This document shows positions 1 to 64,000 of a stretch of DNA of 64,000 bases, piece after piece. Position 1 is the first letter of the stretch; every line of letters starts with the position of its first letter. A program made the position numbers and the translations under genes. The stretch is from Octopus vulgaris (Eukaryota): positions 97,216,001-97,280,000 of the forward strand of contig OX597821.1 in the NCBI GenBank assembly GCA_951406725.2. Reading direction: 5' to 3'. The notes beneath the pieces were generated by a model. That model made no database searches, was not told the origin of the DNA, and saw only the letters and a program-made list of their open reading frames with translations.

Positions 1-315
1 CCTTAAAGGCTTTGTGAATTCTGTCGAAGACGACAGGTGAGGGTCGCGCGGTTCCTGCTCAGATCATTTATTTATTTGTATATCAAACGAATAGGCAGGA
101 CATTAGCTCAACCTCTCCGTCATATCGACATTACCTGTACGGGTGAAGAGGTGTGCCACATGTCAGACGTAATTGCAGAGCTACCTGAAATGAAGCATTA
201 TACTCAAGAGCACCTGCCTGTCTAGAAATCGAAACCACGATCTTCCGATAATTAGTGCAGCACACGAACTGCTTTATGTATATGTGTTTTATCTATATTT
301 ATGTGTCTATATATA

Positions 316-1468: not shown

Positions 1469-1963
1469 TCAGTCATTCAATTTGGGGGAGAACTTAGTTA
1501 TGAAGTATTTTTCCATATTCCTCCTGAAGGAGATGTCATTCTTTGGAAATTTGTAGAAGGAAAAGATCTTAAATTTTCCTTCTCCACATGTATCTAGGTA
1601 TTTAATCAGTGGTATCTTGCGCAGTTCCTCCTGTCGGACATGTAGGCGGTGAATTCTTGCTCGTTGGCATAAAGAATTTCCAGTTTCACCTATATAATCT
1701 TCCTTGTGTGTGTGGCAGGTTATGCAGTATATTACGTTCTGCGTCTTGCAGTTCATATCTGCATTTACTTTGAATATGTGACCACTCTTAAATTTCATTT
1801 GTTTGTCTCCCTCTATGTATTTGTAGGTGGGGTTACTGCAGATCCCACATCTACCATCTCTGCACTCTTTTACAAAGAATTCAGTTTTAGTTTCTGATGA
1901 GAATTTCGCTCTTGTTAGTTGTTTCTTCAGGTTTTTGTCTTGTCGTCTACTGTTTTTATGCAA
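1469..1963 (-). pseudogene. GIY-YIG endonuclease domain of PLE family 1
   Basis: Cys-rich linker (C..GRCGIC) then NCKTQNVIYCITCHTHKEDYIGETGNSLCQRARIH; not in frame with the upstream RT fragment. Confidence 0.85.
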
Positions 1964-2632
1964 TATTTGTTTAATATGTTTTCCATTTTGGGGCTTTGTA
2001 GGACTATTGGTAGGTTTTAATGTATGATTTGAAACATGTTGGTAACTCCAGGGTTGTGTGTGTTTATGAAAGGGATATTTTCTTTGTTTTTTGTTTTGGG
2101 TGTCCTGAGTTGTGGGATGTCCAGTTTCATTGCTCTTGAGATTCCGTTTTTTATTAGTTTAAGGGGGTATTTTTGTTCTAGTAGGAAGTTTTTAAGTTCA
2201 TTTAGTCTTATTTGGAGTGTTTGTGAGTCGGTCACTATGCTGCATATGCGTCTTGCCATACTATACGGAATGTTTCTTTTTATGTGGGATGGGTGGCAGG
2301 AGTAGAAATGTTGATCTCTATATCCAACTAATCCAGAAACGGCGTTCTCAAGTAATCGATGTACGTGTGACATTTCGTTAGTTTTACCTCTATACCTACG
2401 TGAATTATTTTTGAGTATACATTGTCTGGGAGACTTTTCTTATAGTAGAGGAAATAGCTAAACTTTTCTAAAAGTTCGGTGTGTGGTAAAGTAAATTTTT
2501 TTACTGAACCCTAATTATATAACGTAATGTTTTAAATATACCATAAATGGTCTTTTTACATACTGAACACTACTTGGTAAAATTATTAATTAATTATTAA
2601 ATAATTCATTAATTTTACCCTTTTATTATTGA

Positions 2633-6355: not shown

Positions 6356-6482
6356 TCTATTTTATTTTTTCTTCTTTCAAATTTGCTTCCATTTCTTGCC
6401 GAGTGTCTTCTTTGCCCTAGGAGTCGGGAAGACACTCGGCAAGAAATGGAAGCAAATTTGAAAGAAGAAGAAAAAACCCACA

Positions 6483-12855: not shown

Positions 12856-12996
12856 GAGTAAGCACATAAATGTGAAACAAGGTGGGAAAAAAAATAGTAC
12901 TCAAAACCAGAGGTAGAGTAATATGCTTTATTAATAAAGCTGCAAAAGCATCACAAAAACTGCTACTGAGAGTTTCACATTCCTGTTCGTCAAACA
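12856..12996 (-). mobile_element. Family H1 hammerhead element, single arm
   Basis: Homologous to 17003-17144; motif tgt TTGACGA aca-ggaa-tgt GAAAC tctca GTA gca at 12961-12996. Confidence 0.7.
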
Positions 12997-16039: not shown

Positions 16040-16114
16040 TTCTCTCTCGCTTTGAAGTGTACAAATGAAAGAAAAGACCGCTCAGTGCATTTTATAGAAA
16101 TTATATTTCTAGAT

Positions 16115-16166
16115 AACAGTTGTTGACTTAAGCATTCATTAATGAATGCTTAAGTCAACAACTGTT
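16115..16166. repeat. Perfect 52-bp palindrome
   Basis: aacagttgttgacttaagcattcatt|aatgaatgcttaagtcaacaactgtt. Confidence 0.95.
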
Positions 16167-16248
16167 CTGTAGCCTCTATGTGTGTGCGCATATGATTGTG
16201 TGTGTGTTTGTGCATTGATAGATATGGGTGAGTGTGCATACATACATG

Positions 16249-16388: not shown

Positions 16389-16519
16389 CCGGAGTAAACA
16401 CATAAATGTGAAACAAGGTGGAAAAAAAGAGTACTCAAATAGCAAAAACTGTCCGACGAATGGGAACGTTAAACTTAGAGTAACAGGTTTTGTTGAATTT
16501 TCTGCTGCTTTAAATAAAG
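16389..16519. mobile_element. Family H1 element with inversion junction and decayed hammerhead
   Basis: Antisense 3' tail joined to sense ctgt CCGACGA atgggaacgt TAAAC ttaga GTA acag (16449-16486), ending ...taaataaag. Confidence 0.75.
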
Positions 16520-17002: not shown

Positions 17003-17222
17003 ACCGGAGTAAACACATAAATGTGAAACAAGGTGGAAAAAAGATTACTCAAATACCAGTGGTAGAGTAATATGCTTTATTTAAAGCAGCAGAAAATTCA
17101 ACAAAATCTGTTACTCTGAGTTTCCCGTTGCCGTTCATCGGACAATCAAAAACTGTCCGATGAACGGCAACGGGAAACTCAGAGTAACAGATTTTGTTGA
17201 ATTTTCTGCTGCTTTAAATAAA

Positions 17223-17223
<1 letters not shown>
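17003..17223. mobile_element. Family H1 hairpin element (70-bp perfect arms, 9-nt loop, ~70-bp one-sided tail) in (TA)n
   Basis: 17075-17144 is the exact reverse complement of 17154-17223. Confidence 0.9.
17153..17190 (+). ncRNA. Minimal type I hammerhead, U4C core
   Basis: ctgt CCGATGA a-cg-gcaa-cg-g GAA ACTC-A-GAGT A acag (GUA triplet); mirror copy on minus strand at 17108-17144. Confidence 0.7.
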
Positions 17224-17266
<43 letters not shown>

Positions 17267-17544
17267 CAATAATAAATCTCTGAATATATATATAATATAA
17301 TATGATATATATTATATGTCACATTTCATATAATGAATTCTAATCAGCATAATCATATCAAATATATTTATTCATTCAAAATATAATTGCTATCTTTAGC
17401 AATAAGACTTCCTCGCCTTGAAAATTTGTAAATTTCTTATGCAAAAACAACAATCTTGTACTGTTGACCAAGTTCTACTAAACCTCCAAGTTAAATTCTT
17501 TTATTCTTTGGTACAGATTCTCTTCAATTGCTATATATAGATAT

Positions 17545-17950
17545 GCAGATGTGGCTGCGTGGTTAAGAAGTTTGCTTCCCAACCCTACAATCTTGGGTTC
17601 AGGCCCACCTCAGCCAAGTGTCTTCAACTTTAGCTCCAGATCAACCAAAACCTTGTAAGTGGATTTGGTAGACAGAAACTATAAGAAAGCCTTCACATAT
17701 ACATGTATATGTATGTGTGTGCCAGTGCGCACCCTTGTCTTGACATCATGTGATGGTCGTGAATAAGCACCACCATCATAGAAGTGATGTTTTACCTTTC
17801 CAGTCTTCCATGTAAATATATCTGGTCATAGGAAAATATTATTGTGTATGAGGTTTGGCAACCAGAAGAGCATCCAGCCACAAACAAATTCAGCCTTGAC
17901 AAATTCCATCTGACCCATGCAAACATGGAATTGTGGACGTTGACTGATAA
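17545..17950 (+). mobile_element. Chimeric SINE: family A head + distinct middle + family D-like 3' end
   Basis: gtggctgcgtggtt...ggttcaggccc head; ends gagcatccagcc...cccatgcaaacatggaattgtggacgttg. Confidence 0.55.
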
Positions 17951-18380
17951 GGATACACTTTCTATCTATAACGTCATTTCACAGCGTCTACCTCCCTTCC
18001 CTTCACTTTCTCTTTATAACGTCGTTTCACAGCGTCCTATATCTCCCCGCCTTTGACAGCGCTTTCACACTCTCTATCTCTCTACGTCTGTCTACATTCA
18101 TAGAGAGATAATGTACACATCTACATAAACTATAGAACCTAAACATATCCATCAATGGCTTGTTGACAGAGGAATCACCTGTCTCTTGTCTTTTATCATT
18201 TACTTGTTTCAGTCATTAGACTGTGTCCATGCTGGGGCACCACCTTGAGGAATCCTTTTAATAGAAGGAATCAACCCCAGTACTTATTATTACTTTTTTT
18301 AAAGACTGGCACTTATCAGTCACTTTTGCTGAACTGGTATGTTATGGGGACATAAAAACACCAACACTGGTTGAGCAAAG

Positions 18381-18905
18381 GTGTTGGCTTTGTGCATTAG
18401 GATCATGCCATTGACGGGGATGTTTCTCAAGTGAATAAACTGAAACCAATCGTAGAGAGCACGGTCTATTTGTTGGACCTTTCCCTCTCATTGGTGCTTT
18501 CTCTTTGATGAACAACCACCGTGTTCTTTGGCACGACGGTCACCCTCATTCTTTAGAAAATTCTGGAGCAGACTTTTTGAAATTCCCAAACTCTGTGCTG
18601 CTTCCTGTTGAGTTGTTTTCCCAAGAGCTTTGTAACATTCTTGATTCATTTTTGGATGATGGTGTGTACCATATGACAGCTGGCTGACTGTGGCTGCTGG
18701 AATTTACTTGTCAGTATGTAAGAGCAAGAAAAAAAATAACCACTTCATTTGTTCGCTGCTACTTGTTGACACTTTAGGAAGAAACAAGAATTGGATTTAC
18801 TAAGCAATGGTTTGGATTTATTAAATGAGAGATTTTATGTGTAAAAAATTCCATCCAAACCCATTTTGGATACATTAAGTGGGTAGATTTATAAAGCGGG
18901 ATCTC

Positions 18906-18908
<3 letters not shown>
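18381..18908 (-). mobile_element. Tigger/pogo DNA transposon 5' fragment (CENP-B-type HTH)
   Basis: Hand translation TQQEAAQSLGISKSLLQNFLKNE...KRKHQ*EGKVQQIDRALYDWFQFIHLRNIPVNGMILMHKAN; terminus TA|caggagatcccg. Confidence 0.8.
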
Positions 18909-18939
<31 letters not shown>

Positions 18940-18971
18940 ATACAATAATATGTTACATTACTCGATAGTCA

Positions 18972-19034
18972 AGATAAAACTCTGAGTTTCAGATGCCGAA
19001 GTGGAAATCCACAACACCATCTCTTCGGTTATCT
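18972..19034 (-). ncRNA. Type I hammerhead, U4C core, downstream of PLE family 2 ORF
   Basis: agataa CCGAAGA gatg-gtgtt-gtgg-attt-ccac-ttcgg-catc-t GAA ACTC-A-GAGT T ttatct: 6-bp helix I, two-part helix II, GUU triplet. Confidence 0.75.
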
Positions 19035-19226
19035 GGCTATTTGAAAACGCTATGAAAAAATACCGTTATATAAAGGGAAATTACTGTGTTATAACTCTGC
19101 TTGCCTGTGTACTTATACATCGCTCGCATTTTTCGTCATAAAAATTATATAAAAATACATTAAAAATATATAAAAATATATAAAAATATATAAAATCTTC
19201 TTGGGACATAACATAGAAAGCATGTT

Positions 19227-19664
19227 CTATCTGTTTTCTTTAGGTGACCAAAAACGTAACAGAAATTTAGTCACATGTGGGCGTGATCCGAAAAGTTCTG
19301 TCCTTGTGTTTAGACATGTAGTAGGGTCTAAGCTGCTTTTCCAGATAATCCATCTCTCCATGTCGCATAGACCGCACCTTCCGCTGCCGTTGGTATAGGG
19401 CTTACATCTGGCCAAAATCTTCCATTGTATGTTATAATCGACACCTTTATCTCTTAAAGACCAAATATGATTAGATAATTGTGTCGCTTTTCTTTTGTTC
19501 CAGTGCCTAAAGCTCAAAGTGTGGTTATTGAACCTGGCCTTGAAATTACCCTCTGTAAGGCCCACGTATTTCTTTGTCGAAACGGTGTCTTTAGTGGTTA
19601 TAGAGTTTACGGTAGCTTCATATATGATGGTCTTGGACATGCAAGCTCCATTTAGCGGGCACAA
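19227..19664 (-). pseudogene. GIY-YIG endonuclease domain of PLE family 2
   Basis: IIY...YVG motif with conserved R, H, E, N; open for 145 aa; RT missing. Confidence 0.85.
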
Positions 19665-20369
19665 TTCTTTATTCTTGCATGAACAGCTGTTTTCTTGTTG
19701 TGTTTTTGTATGTTATGTTTGATTATGTTTTTAAAATTGGTAGTTGAACTAAAACTAATTTTTAAATTGTGTCTATTGAAGAGTTTTAGTTCAACTACCA
19801 ATACTAATACATTTGTTTGTTTGTACTCCACCTGCCTTCATCTTTTGTTTATTTTCGTAAACCTTCCTGTTATATATATATATATACGACAGGCTTCTTT
19901 CAGTTTCCATCTAGCAAATTCATTCACAAGGCTTTGGTGAGCCTGAGGCTATAATAGAAGACACTTGCCCAAGGTACCATGCAGTTGGACTGAACCCAGA
20001 ACTATGCGGTTGGGAAGCAAGCCTCTTACCACACAGCCATGAATGAATTTTTGTTAGCTTTTCTTGTTCCACAACCTAATACAATATTCATTACCTATAT
20101 AGCATTCTACTTTCTGTCACCTTAACCCCAAACCTTGACCCAGCTGGCTTGCATGAAAAGTACTCCAACTGTGGCCTTCCCATCTTTTACTCAGACATGA
20201 TATATCTATAACTACATTAATTAGTATCTCCTTCCATTTAGCAAGGTGCGATTTAAAGGAAATTTGACTGCTGCGTCTTGCAGATCAAGTGGGTGTTGGG
20301 TACCCTATTAGATCCCAGTGTTGTGAAGTCCAAGACAGCTTTATAAAAGCTGATGTTAAGCAACAAGTG

Positions 20370-54961: not shown

Positions 54962-55189
54962 CTGAAAGCTACATTGGTGCAAGGAAGTGCATTGTTGCCA
55001 GCAGTGTATAACAACATACAATAGTCTGGTCAATACAGTGATATATAAATACACACACACATGTATGTATGTATGTATATATGTATGTATATATGTATAT
55101 ATATGTATGTATATGTGTGTGTGTGTATATGTGTGTGTGTATGTGTGTGTGCATTCATACACATACACATACACACATACTGATGTCAT

Positions 55190-57230
55190 CATCTGGTTCC
55201 ACTTTCCTTATCCCCCCATTCTATTAAATGAGGCCTTAATATTCGCAAGAAAATTTGCAAATCTCTATTGGCTGGACATCAACTCTATCTTAGCAGCTAG
55301 AAAAACACTTTTGTCTTTTGTTAACAATTATTGGTCCCGTAAATTCCCTATAGATATCTTTGATATAACTATGGGCTCTTTGGACTCTGTTCAGGTTACT
55401 GACCAGGTTGGTCTCTTCTTCTCTCTTAAATAAACCAGCACTTCCTTAGCATACCCAGAGGTCTCACACCCATGGGTACATTTTGAATATCCATTGAATG
55501 TACCTGGAAGGTCCTCATTCAAAAACAGCACTAAAGTAGCCAACTTCTTAGAAATGACTCAACTTTGACCTAACCTAGATTACACTTACCATAAACCAAA
55601 TGAGTCATAAAAATATATCAATGTCCAATCTAATCACCATAGATTTGCTCTAAATGGCATTGTCACTGGTGCTTCAATCAGGATCTATAACCTATCAGCT
55701 AACGAGGATATCTTTGATAATCATAGCTTGTACTATAACCAGGTTCTCCAGAATAGTGGCTTCCACATGAGGATCTCATATATTTCCAGTACTAGACTAA
55801 AAACAAAACTCAAATGTCTATTTCCTAGTACAAAAGCTATGTCCACCAGGTTTGCCTCTATCTATCCACATGCCATCATCCAGCAACTGAATTCTTCTGC
55901 AGCCAGCACAGTAGTTGAATAATTTCCAGCCCACTACACTGGTTTCTAAGCTCTTTCGAAGCAAAAAGTGGAGATCTTACAGATTGCACCCCTATTCTCT
56001 CTCCAAGTTAAATCTTTACCCAAGCTATTTTTCAAAATCCTAAGCTTTAATTTCCCACTACACCACAAAATATTACCCAAAATTTAATTAATATTTGATT
56101 AAAATCTCATACTCTATAACACTAAACTTAGGATCTCTCACTGCCTCTTCCAATAGGTGCAAACTTAGTCATCTTACTAACTGCCCTATAAACCACTCAT
56201 CTACCTCCACCCTTACCTGCTAGATACTGATACTTTTAGTATTGGGAATCCTACCCACTTGAATAATAGTATTGCCCCAAGTACTTGTAACCCTAATGCA
56301 CCTGACTTGCAGTGATGCCCTCTCTCAGCCCCATACAAGTAATAACACCTCTGGTTCTTCCTTCAGGATGACTGATCATATGAATCAGCATAAAATAAGG
56401 ATTAATTCTAAGCCCACCATTGGTGGAAAAACTAGTAATTGTTGGGTCTTCCAACTATGTCTGCTAGATGGATTTTGTTTACTTTATAACATTATATAAA
56501 TGCCAGGTAATTACATCATGTTCCCACCAGGCTATAGTGGCAGTGTTGAACTGAAGCACCAATAGCAGGCTCACCTGAATTCGTTCTCAAATTGAGTTTC
56601 TAAACTCTTTAGTCCCTAGCTAAACACGTGCTTCACCTCAAGTCCAAGGATATTTCTTATACCTTATCCTCATCCATAGTTGGTGGGATCTCCCCATACA
56701 ACACACACCATCGTGTTTTTAAGTTATATTGCCATGAATTGCTGGCTATTCTTCACCATCATAAAACCTCATTACTCAATAGGTTCTCTGATGTAACCTT
56801 CTCATGTAAGCACAAACTTTATTCCACATTTTCTCATTATGTACAGTCTTTATGATGTCTCCTAATTGTGGATAAAGCTCATTCTTACTATTTAGCTATG
56901 TTAGCACCATTTTCTCTCTCCTTTCTCCTTATCTCAGCATATCTCTTCCTCTCTCTTTGTGTGATTAACTGCCATCCTTAAATGAGTTACTGTCTTCTTA
57001 GATAGATTACCTTACCCACCATTGATGTTTGCTTTTACAAAACTGACTTTTACTCTATCTTGCTCTTTCTCACTGTTTCTTGTATTCTATGTTTGTTATT
57101 TCCTTCCTATGTCATAAATATCCTCCTCCTTCTCCATGCCTACCATTTCTTTTATTCTACCTCTCTTCCTTCCTTTCTATGTCATACAAATCTTCCTCTC
57201 TTTTAAAATAGTTATATATGTTGGCACTAC
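55190..57230 (-). mobile_element. Possible ancient, heavily decayed LINE
   Basis: 2 kb without microsatellites, purine-rich minus strand, isolated YGAE-like remnant near 56330; no open frame. Confidence 0.25.
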
Positions 57231-61584: not shown

Positions 61585-61800
61585 TAAACATACAAAATGG
61601 GACAAGAATGCAAAACACTCAAATAGATGACACAAAAAACGGACGGGTCATTCGAAGCCTCTAATCTTCAGTCAAGAACCGGATCATCCAACCGAAATTG
61701 CGAGGATGATCCGGTTCTTGACTGAAGATTAGAGGCTTCGAATGACCCGTCCGTTTTTTGTGTCGTCTATTTGAGTGTTTTGCGTTCTTGTCCCATTTTG

Positions 61801-62528: not shown

Positions 62529-63672
62529 ATGATGGCCGTCCACTCGTGACCGAGGAAGACCATTGCCGACCATCAGGAACATTGTGCGCTCTAGGACTAA
62601 CTTATATTTTGCATTTGCGGCTCCATTGGAGGCTAATGAGCCCTGCTCTTGACAAGCATACACGACTGCAAACATTGCAGACCAAGCTTTCCCCATTCAC
62701 TATACGAGCCATGCACTTTCGCACAGCTCACTTAAGTTCTTCATGCTGGATACGTGCTCTCTCAAAAGTGTCGATCCCCTCCTTAACCTGCTTTCTCCAT
62801 CTGTGACGATGACAGGCATTGTTCTCCCAGTCAGTGTCCTGCATATAAAAAGCCTTTAACGAGGACTTGACACAGTCCTTAAATCGCAGCCTTGGTTTCT
62901 GCCGGAGTCTCCTTCCATTCACAAGTTCTCCATAGAGCATCTGCTTAGGAATCCTTCTATCCTCCATTCTAATAAGGTGTCCAGTCCAACGCAACCAGTG
63001 CTTGTGTACCATTGCCTCAATACTCAAGATATCAGCTGTCCTCAGGATCTGTGTGTCTGGAATTTTTGAGGTCCAGCCAACATTGAGAATGTGTCTGAGA
63101 CATCTCTGATGAAAACGTTCAAGGACCCTTACCTGACGTTTGTACAGAGTCCATGTCTCACATGAGTAGAGAAGCAATGTCAGTACACAAGCACGGTACA
63201 CAGCAACTTTTGTATGCCTTGCGATGCCATGTTGGGACCAGACACGAGACTGAAGAGACCAGAAGGAATTAGTTGCTCTCTGCAACCTGAAAGATATTTC
63301 CTCATCCAGGGAGCAAGAACGGCTGAGTGTGCTGCCCAGATAGACAAACTTATCTACTACCTTCAGAATTGTTCCTTCAACAAAGATAGCTGGTTCTATA
63401 TATGGATTTCCTGGTGCAGGCTGGAACATTACAACAGTCTTGTCCAGGCTAATGCTGAGTCCAAATGCCCTGCAAGAAGCAGAAATGCAATTCATGAGTA
63501 TTTGCATGTCATCCACTGTATGAGTGACTAAGTCACAGTCATCTGCATAAAGGAGGTCACGAATAATAGACTGGGACACCTTTGAATTGGCAGCAAATCG
63601 GCGAAGATTAAAGAGGCGGCCAGAAGATCGATATCTGACATATATTCCCAGAGAGTTAATCTTAGCAAAAGC
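62529..63672 (-). mobile_element. RTE-clade LINE, 5'-truncated, RT domain to 3' end
   Basis: LLYADDCDL, FGLSISLDKT, FVYLGSTLS, LLYSCETW, LRWTGHLIRMEDRRIPKQMLYGEL; frame continues past the TGA at 62728 into CNVCSRVCLSRAGLIS; flanked by CATA/TA repeats. Confidence 0.95.
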
Positions 63673-63719
63673 ATACACATATATATACATACATATACAT
63701 ACATACATATACATAAATA

Positions 63720-63755
<36 letters not shown>

Positions 63756-63761
63756 TATATA

Positions 63762-63998
63762 CTTTATTTAAAAGCAGCAGAAATTTAACTAAAACTGTTA
63801 CTCGGAGGTTCACGTTCCTGTTCGTCGGATAGTTTTGTTAAAATATTTTAACAAAACTATCCGACGAACAGGAACGTGAACCTCCGAGTAACAGCTTTTG
63901 TTAAATTTCTGCTGCTTTTAAATAAAGCATATTACTCTACCTCTGGTATTTGAGTACTCTTTTTTCCACCTTGTTTCACATTTATGTGTTTACTCCGG
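63762..63998. mobile_element. Family H1 hairpin element (83-bp arms, no loop, one-sided tail)
   Basis: Palindrome centred at 63844/63845; hammerhead relic ctat CCGACGA acaggaacgt GAAC ctc-c-gag TA acag at 63857-63894. Confidence 0.88.
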
Positions 63999-64000
63999 TA

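What the first reader, a model, noticed from the sequence alone, without database searches (positions are those of the whole stretch)
17003..19034. ORF-less hairpin family H1 carries the same variant hammerhead as the neighbouring Penelope element
Seen: H1 (12856, 16389, 17003, 63762) contains helix I-CCGANGA-helix II-GAA-ACTC A GAGT-A-helix I. The PLE family 2 3' region (18972-19034) has the same CCGANGA core and the identical helix III ACTCAGAGT, with different helices I and II. Helix II of H1 closes on a GNRA loop with alternative pairings across copies (aca-ggaa-tgt, atg-ggaa-cgt, cg-gcaa-cg). Established: PLEs carry minimal type I hammerheads with self-complementary helix III that act as dimers. 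Inference: H1 is a non-autonomous ribozyme element or the pLTR of a related PLE, and the shared helix III could allow trans-dimerisation between the two RNAs.
Basis: partly seen in the sequence, partly recalled or inferred. Interest (0 to 1): 0.85.

Follow-up and report, generated by a model that had tools for sequence, protein, structure and literature searches.

The report
Penelope retrotransposon stubs with variant hammerhead
The 'ORF-less hairpins' are short, folded-back end pieces of an ordinary protein-coding Penelope-like retrotransposon, and the predicted self-cutting RNA motif they share with the neighbouring element carries one unusual letter that likely arose separately in each family, so an active partnership between the two RNAs is unlikely.

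Summary
The motif is real, but the reading needs correcting. H1 is not a non-autonomous family. It is the pseudo-LTR end (hammerhead plus ~70-nt tail) of an autonomous Penelope-like element (PLE) with a 727-aa RT + GIY-YIG frame, found in tandem H1-ORF-H1-ORF. H1's parent and PLE2 (44% identical proteins) both show most Hydra-clade marks. Hairpins are 5'-truncated copies with an inverted, tail-less arm, a known PLE insertion pattern. Only 1 of 4 window copies (17003) has the intact motif. The 'alternative pairings' in H1 helix II fit CpG decay, not covariation. Helix III ACUC-N-GAGU is already listed for 5 of 25 published Hydra families. The shared C4 is derived in PLE2 and lost in the youngest H1 subfamily, so it is likely convergent. 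An active heterodimer needs intermolecular helix I, which does not pair. What stays interesting: 10,572 of 19,410 genomic motifs carry U4C, in three lineages, including PLE2 copies with intact frames. Cleavage is untested.

The parts
17003..17144 (-). H1 tail-bearing arm: 3' end of a 5'-truncated copy of the H1-parent PLE (hammerhead, 37-nt spacer, ~70-nt tail ending at (TA)n)
   Evidence: 95.9% over 145 nt to the L104 full-length unit
17003..17074 (-). Tail: stretch between the two discrete 3' ends (about +37 and +107 from the cut site)
   Evidence: end distribution of 123 copies; sequence
17108..17145 (-). Type I hammerhead, C4 core (CCGAUGA, C3 = 17141), predicted cut after A17112
17147..17223 (+). 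Inverted, tail-less arm ending at the fixed +37 site, then (TA)n; arms identical at 70 of 70 positions
17153..17190 (+). Type I hammerhead, C4 core (C3 = 17157), helix III ACUC-A-GAGU, predicted cut after A17186
16388..16519 (.). Older H1 copy: distal 57 nt of the tail arm (-) joined to an inverted arm (+, 16440-16519) whose hammerhead has G12U
12856..12996 (-). Old single-arm H1 copy, 81% to the parent; hammerhead degenerate (C3U, helix III mismatch)
63762..64000 (.). H1 hairpin copy: tail-bearing arm on + (63853-63999), inverted arm on - (63762-63836); both hammerheads carry A15.1C
18938..19786 (-). 5'-truncated copy of PLE2, a second Hydra-like PLE family, ending at its tail-less site in (TA)n
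   Evidence: 96.4% over 859 nt to the L101 unit
19227..19712 (-). C-terminal 161 aa of the PLE2 ORF (linker CSCRNKELC + GIY-YIG)
   Evidence: (PF01541, E 0.0038, below cut-off)
18973..19033 (-). PLE2 type I hammerhead, C4 core (CCGAAGA, C3 = 19028), long helix II, helix III ACUC-A-GAGU, predicted cut after U18978

Best explanation
H1 is the hammerhead-plus-tail end of an autonomous Penelope-like retrotransposon with a 727-aa reverse transcriptase/GIY-YIG frame, and the hairpins are short insertions of it that likely arise when both nicked strands of a (TA)n target prime reverse transcription at two fixed RNA sites and the two short cDNAs are joined head to head. Shown: the parent element, its tandem and inverted arrangements, two discrete 3' ends about 70 nt apart, (TA)n flanks. 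Inferred from the Anolis PLE in vitro work (PMC11167929): the two ends are reverse-transcription start sites. PLE2 is a second family of the same clade. The two lie close likely because both insert into (TA)n and both are abundant. The shared helix III is likely an inherited clade trait that drives homodimer (double hammerhead) formation in tandem transcripts. The shared C4 likely arose separately. The window's hairpin copies are likely inert as ribozymes, because the antisense arm is transcribed first from either strand and would capture the motif.
For: Walk from H1 into a 3' UTR of over 1 kb and a GIY-YIG ORF: at least 15 of 30 loci, output cut for four. 25 of 150 scored protein matches sit in open frames of 718 aa or more. 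H1 downstream of the ORF in 20 of 20 and upstream in 15 of 20 loci picked for long frames; L104 is H1-ORF-H1-ORF-tail-less H1 with a 3,430-bp period. 3' ends of 123 ribozyme copies: 62 at +36..45, 46 at +88..111, 14 read into the ORF leader, 1 at +16; 99 of the 108 in the two main groups abut TA repeats. About 25 of 30 H1 loci carry the inverted tail-less arm (read by eye). RWK, DKT, CxxC, CxH and no Cys between the GIY/YIG-like motifs in both proteins, matching PMC8557442 section 11. ACTC-N-GAGT in 5 of 25 published Hydra families, Penelope-3_HM with the identical actc-a-gagt. H1 homodimer MFE has intermolecular helices I and III; cross-family helix I fails. Hairpin MFE -95.2 kcal/mol, z -20.8. 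A PLE2 hairpin also lies next to an H1 hairpin at an unrelated locus, L003.
Against: No Rfam hammerhead model matched the window region or the canonical-core parent. Pfam found nothing in the two full-length proteins. No tree with published Hydra proteins was built. The H1-parent unit (3.43 kb) is longer than the '<3 kb' typical of Hydra, the tail (~70 nt) is longer than the 30-40 bp described, and the linker's second Cys is Phe in 36 of 42 counted copies (duplicates among loci not removed). Monomer folds of the ribozymes are no more stable than shuffles (z -1.3 to +0.5). The youngest H1 subfamily has an A.A mismatch at 10.1-11.1, so its activity is uncertain. Trees rest on 109-135 columns with unsettled bootstraps and midpoint roots. 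Short copies could still be re-mobilised in trans; not excluded.
Confidence: 0.9

Rival explanations
1. H1 hairpins are a non-autonomous ribozyme element (retrozyme- or SINE-like) that is itself transcribed and mobilised by a PLE protein.
For: Short copies are very numerous, and most H1 loci found with the terminal query lack any ORF. Animal retrozymes are argued to derive from PLE pLTRs (10.64898/2026.07.22.740005, abstract and introduction).
Against: Junctions and arm lengths differ from locus to locus and form a continuum up to full-length elements. Copies are not head-to-tail 170-400-nt tandem monomers as in retrozymes (PMC7229834 passages). Short copies fall in the same subfamily ladder as ORF-bearing ones.
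Confidence: 0.06
2. H1 and PLE2 RNAs form an active heterodimer through the shared helix III and cut each other.
For: Helix III is identical and self-complementary (8 pairs around an A.A, -7.4 kcal/mol), and the mixed cofold gains about as much as the homodimers (-10.2 against -11.0 and -11.6 kcal/mol). Both motifs lie on the minus strand 1.85 kb apart.
Against: Neither mixed junction can close helix I at the cut site. The mixed MFE is not a double hammerhead. The 17003 motif is locked in its own duplex. The same helix III occurs in Hydra elements of coral, sea cucumber and Hydra, so identity needs no partner-specific selection. An inactive, inhibitory pairing is not excluded.
Confidence: 0.05
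3. The C4 hammerheads are dead or nearly dead relics carried along because cleavage is dispensable for PLE transposition.
For: U4C 'considerably decreases activity in vitro' in a viroid (PMC3088659 passage). Ribozyme mutants did not affect insertion by the Anolis PLE in vitro (PMC11167929). PLE2 copies with intact 717-aa frames all have C4 (5 of 5 loci).
Against: Across subfamilies, change is confined to position 4, N7, the GNRA variable base, 11.1, loop III and the helix I bulge, while the other core positions hold in 123-127 of 127 copies. In the PLE2 lineage the rest of the core and helix III are invariant in 38 of 38 rows (partly set by the search pattern) and 6 of 20 pairs show double changes. 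The viroid U4C variant still supports infection.
Confidence: 0.3

Closest known systems
Hydra-clade Penelope-like elements (Craig et al. 2021, PMC8557442; e.g. Hydra-1_Obim, Hydra-2_Amil, Hydra-1/2_Ajap, Penelope-3_HM)
   Same: Single RT + C-terminal GIY-YIG ORF; RWK and DKT motifs; no CCHH; CxxC and CxH near the C terminus; (TA)n targets; type I hammerhead with a 4-bp palindromic helix III and often an unpaired base on each side of helix II; tandem and inverted copies with a tail on one end.
   Different: All 25 listed Hydra families have CUGA (the search descriptor required it), whereas 54% of motifs here have CCGA. Tail ~70 nt. H1-parent unit is 3.43 kb with a long 3' UTR, and its youngest copies have CxFx5C in the linker.
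PLE minimal/dimeric hammerheads (Cervera & De la Pena 2014, PMC4209133; Lunse et al. 2017, not held, known only from its title and a review passage)
   Same: Type I topology, palindromic helix III, predicted dimer activity, mostly found as dispersed truncated copies, some as opposite-strand pairs 100-700 bp apart.
   Different: The core variant reported in the text read is U3-A8, not U4C. Helix II of H1 is only 2-3 bp.
Anolis Poseidon PAc (Frangieh et al. 2024, PMC11167929)
   Same: Hammerhead upstream of two RT start sites that define the tail; AT-rich targets; both strands nicked and extended.
   Different: Penelope/Poseidon clade. There the ORF starts inside the ribozyme; here the first ATG lies 175 nt (H1 parent) or 212 nt (PLE2) downstream of the cut site.
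Non-LTR retrozymes (PMC7229834; 10.64898/2026.07.22.740005)
   Same: Non-coding dispersed DNA with a type I hammerhead related to PLE pLTRs.
   Different: Retrozymes are head-to-tail tandem monomers that yield circular RNA. H1 copies are variable-length inverted truncations of a coding element.
Viroid U4C hammerhead variant (as cited in PMC3088659)
   Same: Same core substitution.
   Different: A rare natural variant there; here about 10,600 genomic copies in three retroelement lineages.

Membership tests
Hydra-clade PLE | Single ORF with RT and C-terminal GIY-YIG endonuclease | tested here: met
   727-aa and 717-aa open frames with YRDD/YKDD and a GIY-YIG-like C terminus; 44% identical over 708 aa; Pfam GIY-YIG only on the PLE2 fragment, below cut-off, none on the full proteins
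Hydra-clade PLE | RWK motif and DKG changed to DKT | tested here: met
   RLRWK + DKT (H1 parent), RMRWK + DKT (PLE2)
Hydra-clade PLE | No CCHH motif in the endonuclease; CxxC and CxH near the C terminus | tested here: met
   No Cys between GVVY and YTG / TIIY and YVG; CELC + CRH, CGLC + CPH
Hydra-clade PLE | CxCx5C linker | tested here: inconclusive
   Met in PLE2 (CSCRNKELC). H1 parent: CNC in 4, CNF in 36, CNY in 2 of 42 counted (duplicates included)
Hydra-clade PLE | (TA)n insertion bias | tested here: met
   99 of 108 H1 ends in the two main groups abut TA repeats
Hydra-clade PLE | RT phylogeny within Hydra | not tested
   Published reference proteins were seen only as text in the supplement; no tree with them was built
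PLE (general) | pLTR tandems, inverted 5'-truncated copies, tail on one end | tested here: met
   L104, L108, L101; two discrete 3' ends
Type I hammerhead ribozyme | Core CUGANGA | tested here: not met
   Window copies and PLE2 have CCGANGA (U4C); met in the youngest H1-parent subfamily, all listed cores in 20 of 20 long-ORF loci
Type I hammerhead ribozyme | GAAA, A15.1-U16.1, NUH triplet and helices I-III | tested here: met
   Met for 17003 (both arms, GUA) and PLE2 (GUU); broken in 12856, 16389, 63762
Type I hammerhead ribozyme | Covariation in the helices | tested here: inconclusive
   PLE2 lineage: 6 of 20 pairs with double changes, 9 of 500 shuffles as high, rows related. H1 lineage: none at subfamily level; apparent cases fit CpG decay
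Type I hammerhead ribozyme | Match to an Rfam hammerhead model | tested here: not met
   No hammerhead family among 28 hits or 4 hits at E <= 10
Type I hammerhead ribozyme | Site-specific self-cleavage | not testable with these tools
   Only assembled contigs were available
Non-LTR retrozyme | Non-coding head-to-tail tandem monomers of 170-400 nt, one hammerhead each | tested here: not met
   Copies are inverted, variable-length truncations continuous with a coding element
Non-LTR retrozyme | Expressed as circular RNA | not testable with these tools
   No raw RNA reads offered

The most novel reading that the evidence does not exclude
U4C is a selected, reversible tuning switch in these PLE hammerheads. 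With U4 the core's CUGA can pair with the UCAG inside helix III (ACUCAGAGU) and lock the monomer; C4 breaks that lock at the cost of a weaker active site. It spread in three lineages of one genome, is carried by PLE2 copies with intact frames, and reverted in the youngest H1 subfamily. That gives natural U4/C4 pairs on near-identical backgrounds for testing whether ribozyme rate matters to PLE transposition. Support is thin: predicted P(unpaired) at C3/position 4 is 0.01-0.17 in 4 natural U4 copies and 0.07-0.78 in 6 C4 copies, and loop III is G, which would re-lock a C4 core, in 135 of 10,572 C4 motifs against 2,246 of 8,838 U4 motifs, a contrast driven mostly by one lineage's history.
Probability: 0.2. 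Interest if true: 0.55.

Novelty: new member of a known kind. Interest (0 to 1): 0.3.

Why it matters
Mostly as a correction: these hairpins are PLE truncation products and should be annotated as such, not as a new ribozyme element, MITE or miRNA-like hairpin. Two points have some value for specialists. First, about 19,400 hammerhead motifs from intact, apparently young Hydra-like families offer a second natural system for the two-site priming model of the PLE tail, with an unusually long (~70 nt) tail. Second, a U4C core in over half of the motifs is invisible to CUGANGA descriptors, so PLE ribozyme counts may be too low, and the natural U4/C4 subfamily pairs allow a direct test of the open question of what PLE hammerheads are for.

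Tried and rejected
Rfam: the whole-window scan listed 150 of 312 hits, none a hammerhead, mostly microsatellite and hairpin matches to miRNA models; focused scans also gave none. The relaxed descriptor printed nothing visible and was not used. Pfam on the full proteins gave 0 families. Expression: no RNA holder listed. Contigs of four runs guessed to be RNA cover the ribozyme-tail stretch and parts of the ORF, with loose ends running into TA repeats at the two 3' ends; no splice or circular joint was listed; this is no evidence on expression or cleavage. Rejected: compensatory change in H1 helix II. Rejected: C4 to U4 by CpG decay as the source of the old PLE2 U4 state, since loop-G copies are 2,246 U4 against 135 C4 while neighbouring CpGs are mostly kept in the listed rows. 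Rejected: the 369-aa frame 62728-63837 as H1's own ORF; it is an unrelated RVT_1 LINE-type fragment whose frame runs through TA repeats into the H1 arm. Rejected: Naiad (endonuclease is C-terminal here). No ORF was found for the third C4 family in 20 loci; not pursued. Literature on U4C in PLEs: searches 'hammerhead + CCGANGA' (0 papers), 'hammerhead + CCGAUGA' (1 unrelated), 'hammerhead/U4C/core variant' (2), a viroid-worded search (1 unrelated); one of the supplementary files of PMC4209133 could not be searched and Lunse et al. 2017 is not held, so U4C in PLEs may already be in print. Earlier findings of this scan: nothing. No covariance model was built; exact patterns served for counts.

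Full report
Observation. The four H1 copies are present. GAAACTCAGAGT occurs on both arms of the 17003 hairpin and in the PLE2 3' region, well above chance. 12856 has C3U, a helix III mismatch and no second arm; 16389 has G12U; 63762 has A15.1C on both arms. The window lies in G000:C8, a 2.8-Gb animal genome; from its repeats it looks like a cephalopod (recalled, not tested).

H1 has a coding parent. A search with the H1 end gave 57 matches from 40 scored candidates; I read the 30 loci returned. Nearly all start at the same base beside (TA)n, and about 25 of 30 (by eye) fold back into an inverted arm that stops at one fixed site. Three extended further 5'. Walking from L005 reached a GIY-YIG ORF in at least 15 of 30 loci, with output cut for four. 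That protein found 150 scored matches among 22,739 candidates, 25 of them in open frames of 718 aa or more. In 20 loci that I picked for long frames, H1 lies downstream of the ORF in 20 and directly upstream in 15; L104 is H1-ORF-H1-ORF-H1 with a 3,430-bp period. The 17003 arm is 95.9% identical to this unit. PLE2 is a separate family with 717-aa frames and the same layout, 44% identical in protein to the H1 parent.

Clade. Both proteins have RWK, DKT, CxxC and CxH and lack the CCHH cysteines. These are the Hydra-clade marks in PMC8557442 (I read the abstract, introduction, sections 11 and 12, passages, and supplement part 2 plus search hits). The linker is CxCx5C in PLE2 but mostly CxFx5C in the H1 parent. 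I built no tree with published proteins, so membership rests on motifs.

How the hairpins form. Of 123 H1 ribozyme copies, 62 end at +36..45 from the cut site, 46 at +88..111, 14 continue into the ORF leader and 1 ends at +16; the true ends read from sequence are about +37 and +107. PMC8557442 describes inverted 5'-truncated copies and a one-sided tail as standard for PLEs. PMC11167929 (parts 1-2 read) shows in vitro that an Anolis PLE nicks and extends both target strands and starts reverse transcription at two sites that bound the tail. I infer that each H1 hairpin is two short cDNAs primed at these sites and joined head to head. The arrangement is shown; the priming step is inferred.

The ribozyme. 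The pattern CYGANGAN{8,36}GAAACTCNGAGT has 19,410 genomic matches against 4 for the control; 10,572 have C4. Among 127 ungapped H1-lineage copies, frequent variation is confined to position 4, N7, the variable GNRA base, 11.1, loop III and the helix I bulge, which fits selection on the fold. Covariation is seen modestly in the PLE2 lineage: 38 of 42 distinct sequences aligned (four with indels left out), 92.4% of cells paired, 6 of 20 pairs with double changes, 9 of 500 shuffles as high, relatedness uncorrected. Against: no Rfam hammerhead hit, monomer folds no better than shuffles, and an A.A mismatch at 10.1-11.1 in the youngest H1 subfamily.

Is it 'the same variant'? Helix III ACTC-N-GAGT is listed for 5 of 25 Hydra families, from coral, sea cucumber and Hydra, so it is likely inherited. 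Position 4 switches within each lineage. With it masked, the H1 tree (36 distinct rows from 52 tail-bearing copies) nests 14 of the 16 U4 rows, which include the intact-ORF copies, inside a C4 ladder (support 90/91). The PLE2 tree (57 rows) nests 35 of 36 C4 rows in a 97/98 group inside a U4 ladder. Both trees are short, midpoint-rooted and rough. All listed cores in the 20 long-ORF H1 loci are U4, and all in the 5 PLE2 loci are C4. A third, older family has CCGA in 11 of 17 motifs with the same helix III. The shared C4 is therefore likely convergent. U4C is known from a viroid, where it lowers activity in vitro but allows infection (PMC3088659, section 8 and passages). I found no report of it in PLEs, but Lunse et al. 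2017 and one supplement of PMC4209133 were not visible.

Trans-dimerisation. In a double hammerhead the strand after N17 of one RNA must pair with the strand before C3 of the other (established topology; reproduced by the H1 homodimer MFE). Cross-family helix I fails in both directions, and the mixed MFE is not a double hammerhead, although its binding gain (-10.2 kcal/mol) is close to that of the homodimers, so an inactive decoy pairing is possible. At 17003 the antisense arm precedes the ribozyme on either strand and forms a long duplex (-95.2 kcal/mol). Closeness of the two families is explained by shared (TA)n targeting and high copy number; the same pairing recurs at L003.

Most novel reading. 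In U4 copies the core CUGA can pair with UCAG or UCGG in helix III; predicted core accessibility is 0.01-0.17 in 4 U4 copies and 0.07-0.78 in 6 C4 copies, with three C4 copies (two middle-subfamily H1, one third-family) still low because of other pairings. Loop-III G is rare with C4 (135 of 10,572) and common with U4 (2,246 of 8,838), but mostly through one lineage. I put selected tuning at about 20%. A near-dead relic is about 30%, given that ribozyme mutants did not affect PAc insertion in vitro.

Other papers seen: PMC4209133 parts 1-2; 10.64898/2026.07.22.740005 part 1; passages of PMC7229834, PMC6765202 and PMC13282606.

Verdict. Real hammerhead motifs in ordinary truncation products of two new Hydra-like PLE families. 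Non-autonomy is refuted and an active heterodimer is unlikely. The widespread, switching U4C core is the one point worth a bench test. Interest 0.3.

Noticed in passing
L129:1494-1545, L143, L194-L213 (G000): A third, older hairpin-forming family with a type I hammerhead TGG-CCGAAGA-...-GAA-ACTCAGAGT-A-CCA, a one-sided tail and TA flanks; C4 in 11 of 17 motifs; no ORF found in 20 loci.
   Followed up: partly
window 63762-63927 and 17075-17223: Both arms of 63762 share the same rare changes (73 of 75 identical) though the copy is about 10% diverged from the young parent; suggests arm-to-arm gene conversion or a mutated template.
   Followed up: partly
window 55167-55793 (+): Old, degenerate RT fragment similar to both Hydra-like proteins (27-32% identity, tblastn E 1e-16 to 1e-20).
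   Followed up: partly
window 1469-2439 (-): Frameshifted fragment of a different PLE with Cys residues between GIY and YIG (CCHH type; Pfam GIY-YIG above cut-off); not Hydra-like.
   Followed up: no
window 62728-63700 (-): RVT_1 LINE-type (RTE-like, recalled) 3' fragment adjoining the 63762 H1 copy across a TA repeat.
   Followed up: partly
window 19735-19805: Short inverted repeat (about 21-bp arms) at the 5' truncation point of the PLE2 copy.
   Followed up: no
L104:1728-1740: TTCTAG lies just 5' of helix I in the H1 parent, resembling the intron end that abuts helix I in D. virilis Penelope (PMC4209133); no splice joint was listed in contigs.
   Followed up: partly
L163:1458-1507 and rows: Further hammerhead variants with the same helix III and other helix II sequences, suggesting more Hydra-like families in this genome.
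   Followed up: no
window 6366-6472, 61645-61748, 16100-16170: Other long perfect hairpins that give miRNA-like Rfam hits below gathering score or are visible in the sequence; possibly fold-back ends of other elements.
   Followed up: no
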